Assembly (NCBI GenBank): GCA_000004985.1 | Contig: GG738868.1 | DNA from: Naegleria gruberi | Lineage: Eukaryota | Strand: one strand, 5' to 3' | Length of the DNA: 64,000 bases | Part shown: one piece after another, positions 17,327 through 27,712 of the stretch | How positions within the stretch are numbered: position 1 is the stretch's first letter | How the letters are laid out: each line of letters opens with the position of its first letter | The notes under the pieces: generated by a model | The model's database searches: none | What the model was told of the DNA's origin: nothing | The model's input: the letters and a program-made list of their open reading frames with translations, nothing else | Position numbers and translations under genes: made by a program

Positions 17327-18089
17327 AAATTATTCTTCCTCTTCATCATCATCGTCTTGCCATGAAGTTTCAACCATTTCCTTCACTCTTCTCTCATAGA
17401 GTTTTCTATTTTCAGTGTAAAGTCTGGCTGCTTCACTGTTGGCTGGTGAATTTGGATTCGGATCAGTGAGCAAACTTTGAATGGAGGTTAAAATTGCAGC
17501 CACATCATAAATTGGACTCCATTGATTTTGAAGAATATCCAAGCAAATTTGTCCATCATTATAAACTACAATTGTATGATATGAATATTATTTAAATAAT
17601 ATTAAATATTAATATATATTCATGAATATAATAATAATTATTTAACGAAGGAAAATGTTATTACTAATACCAATCAAGTGATAAATACATACTATTTGGA
17701 TGGAACATTTTGGTGAGGAATTTTACTTTTGGTGGTTTGTTAGGATAGTCTTCATTGAAGGAAATGCTGAGTTTGAAAGTTCCACCTTCCCATGGTGTAT
17801 CTTCAGGTCTATCCGATCAAAATATTCATATTAATCACCATCAATAAATTCATCAAATAATAATAATTAACGACGTTCGTAAAATTTAGAACAATAAATT
17901 GTGATTTAAAAACCAAGAGCGAAAAAGAAGAACATGAACACAAAAAATTGTAAAAACCACCTACCCGAAAATTACAGCATTCCATTCCATAATATTGGAA
18001 TCAAGAGGTGTAGCGCTGATCCCTTGTGGTGGATCGGTTGACATCTTCTTAAAATCCTTGATTAATCTTCTCTTCACTGGTGTAGACAT
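17327..18089 (-). CDS. UBC2: Ubiquitin-conjugating enzyme E2 of the RAD6/UBC2 (UBE2A/B) type, 3 exons, acidic C-terminal tail
   Basis: Exons 18089..17965, 17808..17693, 17565..17327 (donors GTAGGT and GTATGT). The spliced product [42 protein letters not shown]|[38 protein letters not shown]|[58 protein letters not shown] is near-identical in layout to yeast Rad6, including the HPN and active-site Cys. Only the last exon appears in the ORF track (17330..17542). Confidence 0.85.
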
Positions 18090-23601: not shown

Positions 23602-24621
23602 TCAATAAACAATGGCATGTTTAGAAACAGTTTTGATTGTTTGTATTATTTGTTGGACCATAAAATTATGAAACGGTTCGGTGAGGCCATTCTGGTGCTC
23701 TTCTAGTAGTTCCAAATATTTTGTTCTGCATTTCTTTTGTACAGTAATATCAAATAGTCCATATCTATTAAGAATCATATTCATCAATAATCGAGCAGTT
23801 CTTCCATTCCCATCCAGAAATGGGTGAATATGAAGAAATTTACAATGTGCTAGAATGGAAAAGAGTGCAGGATGTAATATTCCATTATCAACTCTTTCTC
23901 TATTCAAATGGAACCACTCAAAGTATTGTTTCATGATTTGAGGTACCTCCTGAGGGTAGGGTCTAACAGTTTCAGAACCCTTGACACGAATTGGGATGAG
24001 TCTATAATTCGATTCCATAAAACCTTCAACATTGCAATAACATTTACTCTTCCCAAAAAGTTCGGTGTGAATATTAAGCAACTGATTTTCGTTAAAATGG
24101 CTTAGTGGTTGTTCCTCTAATTTAGAAATATATTGGAAAGCATGGTGGTGGAACAGTACTTCTAGACATTCTCTTGTGGTTGCTTCTTTTTGCAAAATCT
24201 GACTGAAATCTTGTTGTGATACACCCATTAGTTGTTCAGAAGAGTAAGTGCCGAATGAGTCAAAGAGGATTTCGCAGTCTTTTTGCGATAAAGTATTTCC
24301 CTCAATGCTTGTGCTGTGGTGAGTATTTGAAAGACGATAATTTGCCCAGATGGCATGGTTTTTAGAAAGCTGTGGTACAATACTTGTGGATAAAGAATCT
24401 AAGTAACCTAAATGATAGATATTTGCCAATGGTTGCTCATCTTTGAAGATATTAGTGGCTCCCAACCACATTTCTCCAGAAAATGCCTTTTTAACTTTTT
24501 CTTCTGGTGAGAGGGAGTTATAGATAGAGTAAATCTCCAGCAAACGTTCCTTTCGGCGTGCTTCTTTGCTCTCTATTATAGTATTAAAGGTTGCATTTAA
24601 AAGAAGTCGTGAGGTACGCAT
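23602..24621 (-). CDS. Fic-domain protein (Fido/AMPylase family), compact single-domain form
   Basis: Canonical Fic motif HPFLDGNGRTARLLMNMIL (HxFx[DE]GNGRxxR) at nt 23800..23826. An upstream inhibitory-helix-like motif STSIEG matching (S/T)xxxE(G/N) lies at about 24298..24315. 339 aa, no TM/TPR region, intronless. Confidence 0.8.
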   Translation of the reverse strand: MRTSRLLLNATFNTIIESKEARRKERLLEIYSIYNSLSPEEKVKKAFSGEMWLGATNIFKDEQPLANIYHLGYLDSLSTSIVPQLSKNHAIWANYRLSNTHHSTSIEGNTLSQKDCEILFDSFGTYSSEQLMGVSQQDFSQILQKEATTRECLEVLFHHHAFQYISKLEEQPLSHFNENQLLNIHTELFGKSKCYCNVEGFMESNYRLIPIRVKGSETVRPYPQEVPQIMKQYFEWFHLNRERVDNGILHPALFSILAHCKFLHIHPFLDGNGRTARLLMNMILNRYGLFDITVQKKCRTKYLELLEEHQNGLTEPFHNFMVQQIIQTIKTVSKHAIVY

Positions 24622-25003: not shown

Positions 25004-26977
25004 ATGGTTTCAGCATCAACAACGAGAGCAAAAAATCGATTGTTAAGAGACTTGAAGGAGATTGAGAATAATCCATTAGAAACTGTGTATGCCCAACCTT
25101 TGCCAAACGATATATTTCATTGGTATGCAACAGTGTTGGCTCCAAAGGAATCTCGTTACCATGGAATTATATTGAATTTGAGTATTGTTTTCCCAGAAAC
25201 GTATCCGAAAGATCCACCCAAGGTTGTTTGCTCGACTCGTATTCACCACCATCATGTCTTTCCAACTTGGATCTGTTTGGACATGTTGAGAACTCACTTT
25301 TCATCAGAGCCTTACAGTGGATGGAGTTCCAGTTATTCTTGTTTGTCCATCTTGTTGCAGTTGCAATCCTTCTTATTGGAGGAGGAAGAACAGCAAAAAG
25401 ATTACATTAAGGAAGATATTGCATCATCAAGAGACTATTCTAATCTCAAAATAGGACATAATCCGAGTAAGGGAAATATTTGGCCACGAGCACCACATTG
25501 GAATGTGGATGAAATTATCAAATCAGAATATGATCCCTCTTTACAAACTAAAAAAAAGGATGAAACTCAATATGAGAAGGGTGTTGTTGACATGGATTTG
25601 GAAGAATTTATTGAGAAGGAGACGAAGCAAGCGAGCTCTGTAATGTCAAAGAAGAAGAGAAAAAAGATGAACCGATTACAAAGATCCAAAAAGGAGGAAA
25701 ATGATGAGAATGTCCCTTCAAGCAGTACATCTACTATTACTCACCAAGCACCTGTTCAATTAAACAAGATTGAAAAGATGAAGGACCTTCCAAATGAAAC
25801 ATTGATTCATATTTTGAGTTATCTATCTCTCATTGACTTGAAGAGAGTGAGCAACTCTTCCAATTTTATGAAACTCTTGTGTGAAAACAAGAGTTTGACA
25901 ACTGAAAGAGAATTGATTTGTTTCCACTCCAAAGTAACCTACAAAGAAGATATTCTTGGAGTTGGATTAACATTTGAAACAAAGGATGGTGGGGTGGTTG
26001 CCTCCATTTCTACTCCATTAGATTTGGTATCAAAAAGTGCATTCTTTGATGAAAGTGTCAGAAAGAGTGTTTGGGGTGTTTTGACTCAACAATGGATTCC
26101 AATATATATTAATAAGGAACATGGAAACTTTGAGGCTCTAAAACAAGCCGTCAAGAGTATTGCCAAGTCATATCCATCACTATCTCAATCCAATAAGTTT
26201 GACAGTCCAGAAATCTATATTGATCTATTGTGTAAATTGATGAATACCATGGTGGTTGAGATTATGAAAGGTCAAACCCATGCCTCAATCAAGGCCCTGT
26301 ATGGATATATGTACTTTCACCGATGGCTGATTTACTTGGTTCAAAAGTTCCCATCTGCTCTCAAAGATATTGAGGAACAAGTCAAATCCTTTGTTACCAA
26401 TGAGAATTCACGTAAAAAGTCAAATTGTCCAAACATTGGCGAATTCCTTCCAAAACTTTCAGTTTTGGGTCCATCTGGTTTAACTTGGGATTATGTTAAA
26501 TCATCTGTTGTTGAGGAAACCTCTATTAGAAATCAACTTTGGGTCATCAAGCAGTTCCCTTCTCTATCTTCCACTAATGATAGTTCAGATGATTTCAGAT
26601 GCACCAATTCGTGGGTGGCAAACAATGTCTCTTGTAAGCTAATTATGTTCCATGTATTCTTCTTGAGAAATGTTGTAGAATCTTATACTGACCTTTCTCT
26701 TGAAGAATTTGGAAGATTGTACGATAATAACTTTGGTTGCCCACCAAAGACAAAGAATGGTGATTTTTTGGAAGATGTTCTTCAAAGGGAGGTATTCACA
26801 ATTCAAAATGTGTCATGTTTCCAACAATATTTCGAATACGTCGGTTTACCAAATATGAAAACAAGAACATCTGTTGCTCAATATTTGAGAAATTGTGTTA
26901 CCATTAGTGAAAAGAGAAGATATCATAATAATTTCAAAAATGGAAACAAGAACAACTTTTACAAAAATAAAAAGTAG
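25004..26977 (+). CDS. UBC (E2) core domain + F-box fusion protein with long uncharacterised C-terminal region
   Basis: The N-terminal ~120 aa is a UBC fold (RLLRDLKEIENNP..HWYATVL..Y..G.I.L.I.FP..YP..PPKV.C.T.I.HHHV....WICLDML..W.P..S..SILLQLQSFL) with the catalytic Cys at 25274..25276. The usual HPN is replaced by HHHH (25244..25255). An F-box-like motif LPNETLIHILSYLSLIDLKRVS lies at about 25796. The remaining ~390 aa is unassigned. Confidence 0.7.
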   Translation: MVSASTTRAKNRLLRDLKEIENNPLETVYAQPLPNDIFHWYATVLAPKESRYHGIILNLSIVFPETYPKDPPKVVCSTRIHHHHVFPTWICLDMLRTHFSSEPYSGWSSSYSCLSILLQLQSFLLEEEEQQKDYIKEDIASSRDYSNLKIGHNPSKGNIWPRAPHWNVDEIIKSEYDPSLQTKKKDETQYEKGVVDMDLEEFIEKETKQASSVMSKKKRKKMNRLQRSKKEENDENVPSSSTSTITHQAPVQLNKIEKMKDLPNETLIHILSYLSLIDLKRVSNSSNFMKLLCENKSLTTERELICFHSKVTYKEDILGVGLTFETKDGGVVASISTPLDLVSKSAFFDESVRKSVWGVLTQQWIPIYINKEHGNFEALKQAVKSIAKSYPSLSQSNKFDSPEIYIDLLCKLMNTMVVEIMKGQTHASIKALYGYMYFHRWLIYLVQKFPSALKDIEEQVKSFVTNENSRKKSNCPNIGEFLPKLSVLGPSGLTWDYVKSSVVEETSIRNQLWVIKQFPSLSSTNDSSDDFRCTNSWVANNVSCKLIMFHVFFLRNVVESYTDLSLEEFGRLYDNNFGCPPKTKNGDFLEDVLQREVFTIQNVSCFQQYFEYVGLPNMKTRTSVAQYLRNCVTISEKRRYHNNFKNGNKNNFYKNKK

Positions 26978-27178: not shown

Positions 27179-27712
27179 GTGAAGAAAAGAATAATTGAAT
27201 GGGAGGAAGGCGAGTTATTGTGTTATTTGAGAAAAAGAAAATTAATATTTAATTTTAATAGAGTCACACATTTACATGGTTTGAATGAAAAAGCTAACAG
27301 ATTCAGAAAAATAATGAATGAAAATGGCAAATCATACAAATTCATTTCTGGGTCTAGTGATTACGATAGATATGAAGAAGTAGAGAAAATGAGAGAAGAC
27401 ATCTATCGTAAAATCATCAATGCAGGGTTTGAGCCAGACACAAGATGGGTCACTAATTCGAAACTAATGACAGAAGAAGAAAAAATAGCTTCTCTACACA
27501 AGCATGCAGAAAAAACAGCCATAGCTCATGCCTTTGTTTTAAATCCAAACAGAAAGAAAATATTACTAACCATAAATCTACGAGTTTGCAATGATTGTCA
27601 TAACGCTGCTACGTATATTTCCAAAGAGATGAATGTTGAAATTATTGTAAGAGATGCAAATAGATACCATCATTTTGTTAATGGTAAATGTAGTTGTGGA
27701 AATTATTGGTAA
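27179..27712 (+). CDS. Stand-alone DYW-type cytidine deaminase domain protein (no PPR repeats detectable)
   Basis: The C-terminal 95 aa match the plant/protist DYW domain almost position for position: HAEKTAIAHAF.., NLRVCNDCHNAATYISKEMNVEIIVRDANRYHHFVNGKCSCGNYW. The zinc/catalytic residues HxE (27503..27511) and CxDCH (27587..27601) are present, and the protein ends in NYW instead of DYW. The upstream part (..GFEPDTRWVTNSKLMTEEEKIASL) resembles the E2/DYW-N region. The first in-frame ATG is at 27314, and the track start 27179 is GTG. There is no room for a PPR array between this gene and the upstream gene end (26977). Confidence 0.8.
   Translation: MKKRIIEWEEGELLCYLRKRKLIFNFNRVTHLHGLNEKANRFRKIMNENGKSYKFISGSSDYDRYEEVEKMREDIYRKIINAGFEPDTRWVTNSKLMTEEEKIASLHKHAEKTAIAHAFVLNPNRKKILLTINLRVCNDCHNAATYISKEMNVEIIVRDANRYHHFVNGKCSCGNYW

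What the first reader, a model, noticed from the sequence alone, without database searches (positions are those of the whole stretch)
25004..26977. UBC E2 core fused to an F-box, with HPN replaced by HHHH
An E2-fold N-terminus (with the active-site Cys in the WICLDML context) is followed about 150 aa later by an F-box-like motif, then about 390 aa of unassigned sequence. F-box proteins normally recruit substrates to SCF E3s that work with separate E2s, so fusing an E2 domain to an F-box is unusual. The invariant HPN tripeptide (whose Asn stabilises the oxyanion) is replaced by a His run. This suggests either a divergent catalytic mechanism or a UEV-like non-catalytic scaffold that nevertheless retains the Cys.
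Basis: seen in the sequence. Interest (0 to 1): 0.55.

Follow-up and report, generated by a model that had tools for sequence, protein, structure and literature searches.

The report
E2, F-box and UBR4-like ligase fusion
This amoeba (Naegleria-like) gene joins a ubiquitin-carrying E2 enzyme, an F-box, and a tail whose predicted fold matches the recently defined ligase module of the giant human protein UBR4, so it looks like a one-chain E2-E3 ubiquitin ligase from a large, unstudied protist and fungal family.

Summary
ORF 25004..26977 (+), 657 aa, has a UBC/E2 domain (Pfam 74 bits, Cys91 in WICLDML) and an F-box at aa 260-298 that scores above both Pfam cut-offs. H82-H83-H84 sit where HPN normally is.

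Two points change the reading.
- **HPN replacement.** Asn-to-His is a clade variant of one family. Among 78 homologues with the Cys motif, 33 have HPN and about 31 end in His, and the Cys is never lost there. The active UBE2W family carries HPH. A UEV-like dead scaffold is therefore unlikely.

The tail domain defines over 1,300 protein clusters. Of 143 sampled proteins with room upstream, 91% carry this E2 and 61% the F-box.

Best reading: a single-chain E2-E3 hybrid that docks to Skp1 through its F-box. Catalysis, Skp1 binding and zinc binding are all inferred. The family's CxxC pair is lost in the Naegleria clade. I found no literature on this architecture.

The parts
25004..26977 (+). Complete intron-less ORF of 657 aa plus stop: E2, F-box and a hemiRING/UZI-like module
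   Evidence: It aligns from Met1 to the end with Naegleria, Willaertia and Acrasis homologues.
25004..25435 (+). UBC (E2) domain, aa 1-144. It has helix 1, a four-stranded sheet, the YPxxPP loop (F63, Y67, P68, P71, P72), the HxH loop, Cys91, W107 and the crossover helix. One further helix replaces the canonical alpha3/alpha4 and the loop-8 'CES/D' gate.
25244..25255 (+). His81-His84 run. H82-H83-H84 occupy the HPN positions, so Asn is replaced by His.
   Evidence: Alignment to UBE2D. Family census: HPN 33, HSH 9, HPH 8, RSH 5, HHH 2 and others. Codons.
25274..25276 (+). Cys91, the predicted thioester-forming catalytic Cys (WICLDML)
   Evidence: Invariant in 32 of 32 aligned sequences. Present in 78 of 84 homologues, and the rest lack the domain.
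25436..25501 (+). Post-UBC 'knuckle', aa 145-166 (YSNLKIGHNPSKGNIWP...). The family consensus is F-x-C-x2-C-x-H-x(5-9)-[WYF]-P. Here both Cys are lost (N147, I150) and the invariant His152 is kept.
   Evidence: pLDDT is 93-95 in the full-length model.
25562..25762 (+). Disordered, variable linker, aa 187-253, with a basic NLS-like stretch KKKRKKMNRLQRSKK
   Evidence: pLDDT below 50. Length and sequence vary between homologues. The NLS reading is inference only.
25781..25897 (+). F-box, aa 260-298 (LPNETLIHILSYLSLIDLKRV...)
   Evidence: PF12937 27.4 bits and PF00646 24.0 bits, both above the gathering cut-offs. pLDDT 86-90. Conserved at the same position in 87 of 143 family members.
25904..26203 (+). 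Beta-rich hemiRING-like subdomain, aa 301-400. It starts with the invariant C306 in 'CFHSK' (nt 25919-25933) and includes H308 and H373.
26204..26923 (+). UZI-like helical bundle, aa 401-640, about 11-13 helices. Invariant W495, E505, R509, N510 and W513.
26936..26974 (+). Low-complexity Lys/Asn tail, aa 645-657, disordered
   Evidence: pLDDT below 50.

Best explanation
The gene encodes a single-chain E2-E3 hybrid ubiquitin ligase with an F-box docking element.

**Shown here**
- An N-terminal UBC domain keeps the catalytic Cys91, the E1/RING-contacting helix 1, the L4 Phe63 with YPxxPP, and the W107 region.
- It carries His in place of the HPN Asn, as the UBE2W family does. It also lacks the canonical loop-8 gate and the last helices.
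- A family-specific Cys/His knuckle follows, then a disordered linker, then a bona fide F-box.
- The last 350 aa have a predicted fold that matches, and essentially only matches, the hemiRING-UZI E3 module of human UBR4.

**Inferred mechanism**
1. E1 loads ubiquitin on Cys91.
2. The C-terminal hemiRING/UZI-like module binds the RING-binding face of its own UBC domain in cis and promotes discharge. This mirrors how UBR4's module recruits and modestly activates UBE2A~Ub. Covalent fusion would replace the extra 'affinity factor' that UBR4 needs.
3. His84 substitutes for Asn in stabilising the oxyanion.
4. The F-box binds Skp1. This tethers the self-contained E2-E3 unit to Skp1, or to an SCF scaffold, which would define its targets or location.

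In relatives, the F-box position or the C-terminus instead carries S1, RRM, CCCH, SPRY, LRR, VWA or TerD domains. That pattern fits a constant catalytic core with exchangeable targeting domains.

In the Naegleria clade the family's probable C2HC zinc site (C147, C150, H152, C306) has lost its CxxC pair. Here the RING-like element is therefore probably zinc-free, as a U-box is.
For: - **Domains.** Pfam UQ_con 74 bits, and the F-box above both cut-offs.
- **Fold.** The AF2 models are confident: full length pLDDT 83.7 and pTM 0.79, C-terminal domain pLDDT 89.4 and pTM 0.88.
  - Foldseek, an independent method, gives one significant hit: 8b5w 'E3 module from UBR4', E=5.7e-5, probability 1.0, TM 0.62/0.64.
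- **Published function of the match.** The UBR4 paper defines that module as an E2-binding, E2~Ub-activating unit with a C2HC zinc site and a novel UZI fold shared only with UBR1-3 (PMC10873205).
- **Docking in cis.** The full-length model aligns 187 of 211 residues at 2.6 A to the UbcH5B-ccRING3 (MIB1) fusion, which mimics an E2-RING complex. E2-only chains align about 125-135 residues. So about 50 extra residues sit where a RING sits on an E2.
- **Co-occurrence.** Of 143 sampled family proteins with at least 220 aa upstream of the C-domain, 130 have this E2 and 87 the F-box. Pfam on 62 members finds UQ_con in 30, S1 in 9, F-box-like in 8, LRR, TerD and RRM in 7 each, plus VWA, CCCH and SPRY.
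- **Conservation.** Cys91 is invariant and the HxN and HxH states are interchangeable. HPH E2s are active (PMC4630614, PMC11649903).
Against: - The link to UBR4 rests on predicted structure only. There is no Pfam hit, no PDB hit with a family profile at E<=10, and no UBR4 among the profile-search hits.
- UBR4's own zinc ligand pattern (CxxC...HxxC) is not reproduced. The window protein lacks the family's CxxC altogether.
- I could not obtain model coordinates. Which residues contact the E2, and whether H152, C306, H308 and H373 cluster together, is unknown.
- The UBC domain lacks both the Asn and the loop-8 CES/D gate, so its reactivity could be unusual or low.
- The role of the F-box is pure inference. 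An F-box protein with its own E2 and RING-like module has no obvious need for Cul1-Rbx1.
- No experimental data exist for any member.
Confidence: 0.55

Rival explanations
1. Conventional SCF substrate receptor with a built-in E2. The F-box is the primary function: the protein sits on Skp1-Cul1-Rbx1, the C-terminal helical domain binds substrates, and the fused UBC domain replaces or supplements a diffusible Cdc34/UbcH5-type E2.
For: The F-box scores above the Pfam cut-offs and is the commonest middle domain, present in 87 of 143 members. In F-box proteins the domains C-terminal to the F-box are normally substrate binders. Relatives carry typical substrate or ligand-binding domains.
Against: The C-terminal domain pairs with the E2 in 91% of proteins, against 61% for the F-box, and 66 of 221 sampled proteins are E2 plus C-domain without an F-box. 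Its only structural relatives are E2-binding E3 modules, UBR4 and Ubr1. The full-length model places RING-like residues on the E2.
Confidence: 0.2
2. Two-cysteine relay. Ubiquitin passes from the E2 Cys91 to the invariant Cys306 (CFHSK) of the C-terminal module and from there to substrate, as in RBR, RCR and HECT ligases.
For: Cys306 is invariant in 32 of 32 aligned sequences. It stays invariant in the Naegleria/Willaertia clade, where its presumed zinc partners C147 and C150 are gone and H308 is sometimes Tyr. Zinc binding alone therefore does not explain its conservation. It is followed by a near-invariant Lys or Arg.
Against: The UBR4 hemiRING-UZI module works allosterically, without a catalytic Cys (PMC10873205). 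C306 could be structural, or a remnant zinc ligand together with H152, H308 and H373. No coordinates were available to judge its exposure or its distance to Cys91.
Confidence: 0.08
3. Non-catalytic, UEV-like or auto-inhibited pseudo-E2 scaffold. The UBC fold only serves as a binding surface.
For: The HPN Asn is absent and the loop-8 gate and last helices are missing: Pfam covers only positions 1-122 of 140. The closest E2 structure is the atypical UBE2J2.
Against: The catalytic Cys is kept in all 78 homologues that have the active-site motif; the six without it lack the domain or the motif. Many close relatives have a perfect HPN. HPH E2s (UBE2W) and HPN-less E2s (UBE2J2/Ubc6) are active enzymes. 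UEVs are defined by loss of the Cys.
Confidence: 0.07
4. Artefact: two adjacent genes (an E2 gene and an F-box gene) read as one ORF, or a chance F-box match.
For: None beyond the modest F-box bit scores of 24-27.
Against: The ORF is a single uninterrupted reading frame in genomic DNA. The same co-linear architecture occurs in Naegleria gruberi, N. lovaniensis, N. fowleri, Willaertia, Acrasis, Arcella, Physarum, chytrids and Peziza. F-box E-values reach 5.8e-14 in homologues.
Confidence: 0.01

Closest known systems
Human UBR4 C-terminal E3 module (hemiRING + UZI; PDB 8B5W, and 8BTL with UBE2A; Barnsby-Greer et al. 2024, PMC10873205)
   Different: No detectable sequence similarity: 11% identity and no HMM hits. 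The ligand order differs: CxxCxH...C here against CxxC...HxxC in UBR4. In the window protein the CxxC is lost. The E2 is fused to the same chain instead of being recruited (UBE2A/B). There is no UBR box and no giant scaffold. An F-box lies between the knuckle and the module.
Yeast/human UBR1-3 RING plus cap-helical/'UZI' region (PDB 7MEY)
   Different: A much weaker match. UBR1-3 have a canonical two-zinc RING.
E2/E3 hybrid enzymes UBE2O and BIRC6
   Different: Those proteins have no RING-like or UZI module and no F-box. Their accessory domains are unrelated.
UBE2W family E2s (HPH motif)
   Same: The Asn of HPN is replaced by His in an E2 that keeps its catalytic Cys. The C-terminal part of the UBC fold is non-canonical (PMC4630614, PMC11649903).
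Uncharacterised database homologues: N. gruberi XP_002678018.1 (UniProt D2VD59) and XP_002671639.1 (D2VWH1), N. lovaniensis C9374_004141, Willaertia magna KAL9648630.1, A. castellanii XP_004338855.1 (L8GV71), Chytriomyces confervae TPX77443.1, Peziza echinospora KAI5810103.1
   Same: The same co-linear family, at 65% to 25% identity. All are annotated only as 'ubiquitin-conjugating enzyme family protein', 'UBC core domain-containing protein' or 'hypothetical'.
   Different: The window protein is not identical to any deposited sequence. Chytrid members add a C-terminal TerD domain. Amoebozoan members have SPRY or longer inserts. Most non-heterolobosean members keep HPN and the CxxC knuckle.

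Membership tests
UBC / E2 superfamily (PF00179) | UBC fold recognised by the family HMM and by structure | tested here: met
UBC / E2 superfamily (PF00179) | Catalytic cysteine in the active-site loop | tested here: met
   Cys91 in WICLDML aligns with the UBE2D active-site Cys. It is invariant in the family.
UBC / E2 superfamily (PF00179) | HPN tripeptide upstream of the Cys | tested here: not met
   H82-H83-H84 align with H-P-N. The His is kept, Pro becomes His and Asn becomes His. The same Asn-to-His change is found in active UBE2W enzymes.
UBC / E2 superfamily (PF00179) | Complete C-terminal half: loop 8 with the CES/D gate and helices alpha3-alpha4 | tested here: not met
   The Pfam match stops at profile position 122 of 140. 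Only two helices follow the active site in the model. No DPNPDDPL-like loop appears in the alignment.
UBC / E2 superfamily (PF00179) | E1-dependent thioester formation with ubiquitin or a ubiquitin-like protein | not testable with these tools
   Needs biochemistry.
F-box (PF00646 / PF12937) | Match to the F-box HMMs above the curated thresholds, with the LP motif and hydrophobic pattern | tested here: met
   PF12937 scores 27.4 bits (GA 24.3) and PF00646 scores 24.0 bits (GA 20.5) at aa 260-298. Scanned alone, the segment scores 29.4 and 25.2 bits. The sequence is LPNETLIHILSYLSLIDLKRV.
F-box (PF00646 / PF12937) | Binding to Skp1 | not testable with these tools
   Needs a pull-down or a complex prediction with Naegleria Skp1.
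UBR4-type hemiRING-UZI E3 module | Fold: a RING-related beta subdomain packed on an 11-helix UZI bundle | tested here: met
UBR4-type hemiRING-UZI E3 module | C2HC zinc site (Cys4838, Cys4841, His4887, Cys4890 in UBR4) | tested here: not met
   The window protein has no CxxC. The family has C147-x2-C150-x-H152...C306, but here positions 147 and 150 are Asn and Ile. Whether H152, C306, H308 and H373 bind metal could not be checked without coordinates.
UBR4-type hemiRING-UZI E3 module | Sequence-level homology to UBR4/BIG C-termini (for example Pfam E3_UbLigase_R4) | tested here: not met
   No Pfam hit at E<=10. No PDB hit with profile A2 at E<=10. No UBR4 among the profile hits. HHsearch against a UBR4 profile was not possible.
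UBR4-type hemiRING-UZI E3 module | Binds the canonical RING-binding face of an E2 and stimulates E2~Ub discharge | tested here: inconclusive
   Indirect only. The full model aligns 187 of 211 residues at 2.6 A to the UbcH5B-ccRING3 fusion 8v0d_A. The overall pTM of 0.79 implies confident inter-domain packing.
UBR4 orthologue (N-recognin) | UBR box and the giant UBR4 scaffold | tested here: not met
   A 657-aa protein with only UQ_con and F-box Pfam hits.
UEV (inactive E2 variants) | UBC fold lacking the catalytic Cys | tested here: not met
   Cys91 is present and invariant.
UBE2W subfamily | HPH motif as a family-wide signature, plus closest similarity to UBE2W | tested here: not met

The most novel reading that the evidence does not exclude
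This family would be a previously unrecognised class of autonomous ubiquitin ligases. The hemiRING-UZI module has so far been recognised only in the UBR1-4 N-recognins (as hemiRING-UZI in UBR4, as a proposed RING-UZI in UBR1-3). Here it would be permanently fused to a dedicated, atypical E2 and plugged into Skp1/SCF through an F-box inserted inside the RING-like element. That would give a cullin-RING ligase arm carrying its own E2-E3 engine, for example for chain extension, as in the E4 activity of UBR4. Alternatively, it could run a Cys91-to-Cys306 relay.
Probability: 0.15. Interest if true: 0.85.

Novelty: new variant of a known kind. Interest (0 to 1): 0.62.

Why it matters
UBR4's catalytic module was defined only in 2024. 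It was described as a new fold, with distant relatives only in UBR1-3.

If the prediction holds, the same module exists as a compact unit of about 350 aa in over a thousand protein clusters from Heterolobosea, Amoebozoa, chytrids and other microbial eukaryotes, and it is nearly always fused to its own E2. That would give three things.
- **A tractable model system.** A natural single-chain, 650-aa protein for studying how a hemiRING/UZI module activates E2~Ub. UBR4 itself is 574 kDa.
- **Modularity.** Evidence that this E3 module is an ancient, portable unit combined with exchangeable targeting domains: F-box, S1, RRM, CCCH, SPRY, LRR, TerD.
- **An unexplored link to SCF.** A connection between Skp1/SCF and a built-in E2.

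It also adds a second E2 lineage, besides UBE2W, in which the HPN Asn is repeatedly replaced by His. This is useful for testing what that residue really does. Members occur in Naegleria fowleri and Acanthamoeba, which are pathogens. None appeared among the named hits from animals, plants or yeasts.

Tried and rejected
**Searches that found nothing**
- Pfam on the C-terminal 358 aa gave only a sub-threshold DUF1351 hit.
- A family profile against PDB sequences gave 0 hits at E<=10.
- A second large-database search with the C-domain profile gave only 12 hits and no UBR4 or BIG. There is therefore no sequence-level bridge to UBR4.
- Exact look-ups of the window protein and of N. gruberi P0001 in the contig index found nothing on record. 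Synteny could not be checked.
- Literature searches for any description of E2 plus F-box, E2 plus TerD or E2 plus hemiRING fusions found nothing relevant.

**Resources not available**
- The AFDB Foldseek library was not on the machine.
- Burroughs et al. 2008 on the E2 fold (PMC2701696) is not held. I could not check whether that paper lists this family.

**Readings rejected**
- Membership of UBE2W, because relatives have HPN and the structural rank is low.
- UEV, because the Cys is invariant.
- A UBR4 orthologue, because there is no UBR box and the size is wrong.
- A gene-fusion artefact, because the architecture is conserved across phyla.
- Functional linkage to the RAD6-like E2 gene 7 kb upstream. 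This is probably coincidence.
Full report
**1. Observation**

The window is AT-rich at about 33% G+C. It carries long intron-poor ORFs. The best homologues of the target are from Naegleria gruberi (65% identity), N. lovaniensis, N. fowleri, Willaertia and Acrasis. An intron-split RAD6 gene lies nearby. The window is therefore nuclear DNA of a Naegleria-like heterolobosean amoeba. The exact protein is not in the public index.

The ORF at 25004..26977 (+) is complete: ATG to TAG, 657 aa.
- Pfam finds UQ_con at aa 12-140 (E=9.4e-21, 74 bits, cut-off 27).
- Two F-box models match at aa 260-298, both above their gathering scores: PF12937 at 27.4 against 24.3, and PF00646 at 24.0 against 20.5.
- HMMER alignments to UBE2D and UBC8 structures (E about 1e-18) place Cys91 (WICLDML) on the catalytic Cys and H82-H83-H84 on H-P-N.

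**2. The HHHH run**

Among 84 homologues, 78 carry the [ILV]C[LM]D[ML]L active-site motif. At the HPN position:
- 33 have HPN, and about 45 have H-x-N overall;
- about 31 end in His: HSH 9, HPH 8, RSH 5, HHH 2, plus seven other tripeptides seen once each.

The N. gruberi orthologue reads HHSH. The run of four His is therefore incidental, and the conserved change is Asn to His. The catalytic Cys, W107, and the F63/YPxxPP loop are invariant or nearly so.

HPH is the signature of the UBE2W family. Those enzymes are active, and the second His occupies the Asn position and is proposed to stabilise the oxyanion (PMC4630614; PMC11649903). A UEV-like dead scaffold is therefore unlikely.

**3. The 'unassigned' C-terminus**

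Pfam finds nothing in aa 300-657. AlphaFold2 with family alignments gives confident models:
- full length: pLDDT 83.7, pTM 0.79, with only the linker at aa 187-253 disordered;
- C-terminal 358 aa: pLDDT 89.4, pTM 0.88.

The source paper (PMC10873205) describes this module as follows:
- residues 4831-5183 of human UBR4;
- a 'hemiRING', a RING-related cross-brace with one C2HC zinc, packed on a novel 11-helix 'UZI' bundle;
- it binds UBE2A/B on the canonical RING-binding face and modestly activates E2~Ub;

The window protein's tail is thus far closer to UBR4's module than UBR1-3 are. No sequence method sees the relation, so it rests on predicted structure.

**4. Anatomy between the domains**

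After the UBC domain comes a conserved knuckle with the consensus F-x-C-x2-C-x-H-x(5-9)-[WYF]-P. Next come a variable, disordered linker and the F-box. The C-terminal module then opens with an invariant Cys in C-[FY]-[HYF]-[ST]-[KR].

Conserved Cys and His positions in the 32-sequence alignment:

| Position | Conserved in | Window residue |
|---|---|---|
| C147 | 24 of 32 | Asn |
| C150 | 22 of 32 | Ile |
| H152 | 32 of 32 | His |
| C306 | 32 of 32 | Cys |
| H308 | 29 of 32 (otherwise Tyr) | His |
| H373 | 30 of 32 (otherwise Tyr) | His |

C147, C150, H152 and C306 would make a C2HC site. That is the same composition as the UBR4 hemiRING, but in a different order. If so, the F-box-bearing insert lies inside the RING-like element.

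The window protein and all Naegleria and Willaertia paralogues have lost both Cys of the CxxC. I infer that the element is zinc-free in this clade, like a U-box. Why C306 stays invariant there is unexplained.

**5. Is the E2 engaged in cis?**

Coordinates are not returned by the tools, so I could not inspect contacts. Two indirect indications exist.
- The pTM of 0.79 for a protein with 80 disordered residues implies confident relative placement of the domains.

**6. The family**

A phmmer scan of 1.84 billion cluster representatives with the C-terminal domain alone finds 1,351 proteins at E<=1e-3 and 810 at E<=1e-10.

I built family HMMs in the sandbox and scanned 221 sampled sequences.

| Architecture | Number |
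|---|---|
| E2-Fbox-Cdom | 83 |
| E2-Cdom | 66 |
| Cdom only (mostly fragments) | 39 |
| Fbox-Cdom | 26 |

Of 143 proteins with at least 220 aa upstream of the C-domain, 130 (91%) have the family E2 and 87 (61%) the F-box.

Pfam on 62 members adds S1, RRM, CCCH, SPRY, LRR, VWA, TerD and 2',5'-RNA-ligase domains. In the precomputed annotations, 35 of the 84 hits carry an F-box.

Named members come from Heterolobosea, Amoebozoa (Acanthamoeba, Arcella, Physarum), chytrids, Peziza and marine protist transcriptomes. All carry generic annotation only.

The invariant core is therefore E2 plus the hemiRING/UZI-like module. The middle and C-terminal extras look like exchangeable targeting domains.

**7. 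Mechanism**

The best-supported reading (confidence about 0.55) is a one-chain E2-E3 hybrid.
1. E1 charges Cys91.
2. The hemiRING/UZI-like module binds the fused UBC domain in cis and promotes discharge. Fusion replaces the separate E2-affinity element that UBR4 needs.
3. His84 plays the Asn role.
4. The F-box docks the unit on Skp1, possibly within an SCF.

Only the domain identities, the conservation and the fold match are shown. Every functional step is inferred.

Rival readings, with confidence:
- a conventional SCF receptor with a built-in E2 (0.2);
- a Cys91-to-Cys306 relay (0.08);
- a non-catalytic scaffold (0.07);
- an artefact (0.01).

**8. Known or new?**

The E2-plus-F-box architecture is visible in database annotations of N. 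gruberi and other proteins. The gene is thus a new member of an existing but uncharacterised family.

I found no paper that describes the family or that links its C-terminus to UBR4. The library is incomplete, and Burroughs et al. 2008 could not be read.

I rate it a new variant of a known kind. It combines E2/E3 hybrid logic, as in UBE2O and BIRC6, with a UBR4-type E3 module and an F-box. My interest score is 0.62.

Noticed in passing
window 17330..18089 (- strand): An intron-split RAD6/UBE2A-type E2 gene. The first exon reads [42 protein letters not shown]. The last exon reads ...[42 protein letters not shown]...[10 protein letters not shown], with an acidic tail. RAD6/UBE2A is the cognate E2 of UBR1 and UBR4. 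It lies only about 7 kb from the gene with the UBR4-like module, which is probably coincidence.
   Followed up: partly
window 23602..24621 (- strand): The upstream neighbour is a 339-aa Fic/DOC-domain protein (Pfam Fic E=3.6e-16, with an HPFLDGNGR motif). This is a eukaryotic Fic protein in an amoeba genome.
   Followed up: no
window 27179..27712 (+ strand): The downstream neighbour is a short (177 aa) stand-alone DYW-type nucleic-acid deaminase (PF14432 E=1.2e-33, ending CSCGNYW). No PPR repeats are visible in the ORF. DYW deaminases are known from Naegleria organelle RNA editing (from memory).
   Followed up: no
window 25436..25501 (aa 145-166), and homologues P0001-P0007: The family-wide CxxC of the post-UBC knuckle is lost in all Naegleria and Willaertia paralogues. 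H152 and C306 stay invariant, and H308 is Tyr in three of these sequences. The invariance of C306 without its presumed zinc partners is unexplained.
   Followed up: partly
window 25562..25762 (aa 187-253): The disordered linker contains a strongly basic stretch, KKKRKKMNRLQRSKK, that resembles a nuclear localisation signal. The linker varies greatly in length between homologues, and in some it hosts SPRY or other inserts.
   Followed up: no
homologues P0032, P0038, P0054, P0061-P0066, P0069 (chytrids, Physarum, metagenomes): Many members carry a C-terminal TerD domain (PF02342, a bacterial tellurite-resistance/Ca-binding fold) after the UZI-like module. Others carry S1, RRM, CCCH or 2',5'-RNA-ligase domains. 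This suggests RNA-linked or stress-linked targeting in some branches.
   Followed up: partly
homologues P0010 (N. fowleri FDP41_009268, 474 aa) and P0085 (N. gruberi NAEGRDRAFT_76881, 233 aa): These deposited gene models lack the UBC domain, or most of the protein. They look like truncated predictions of the same family rather than true E2-less members.
   Followed up: no
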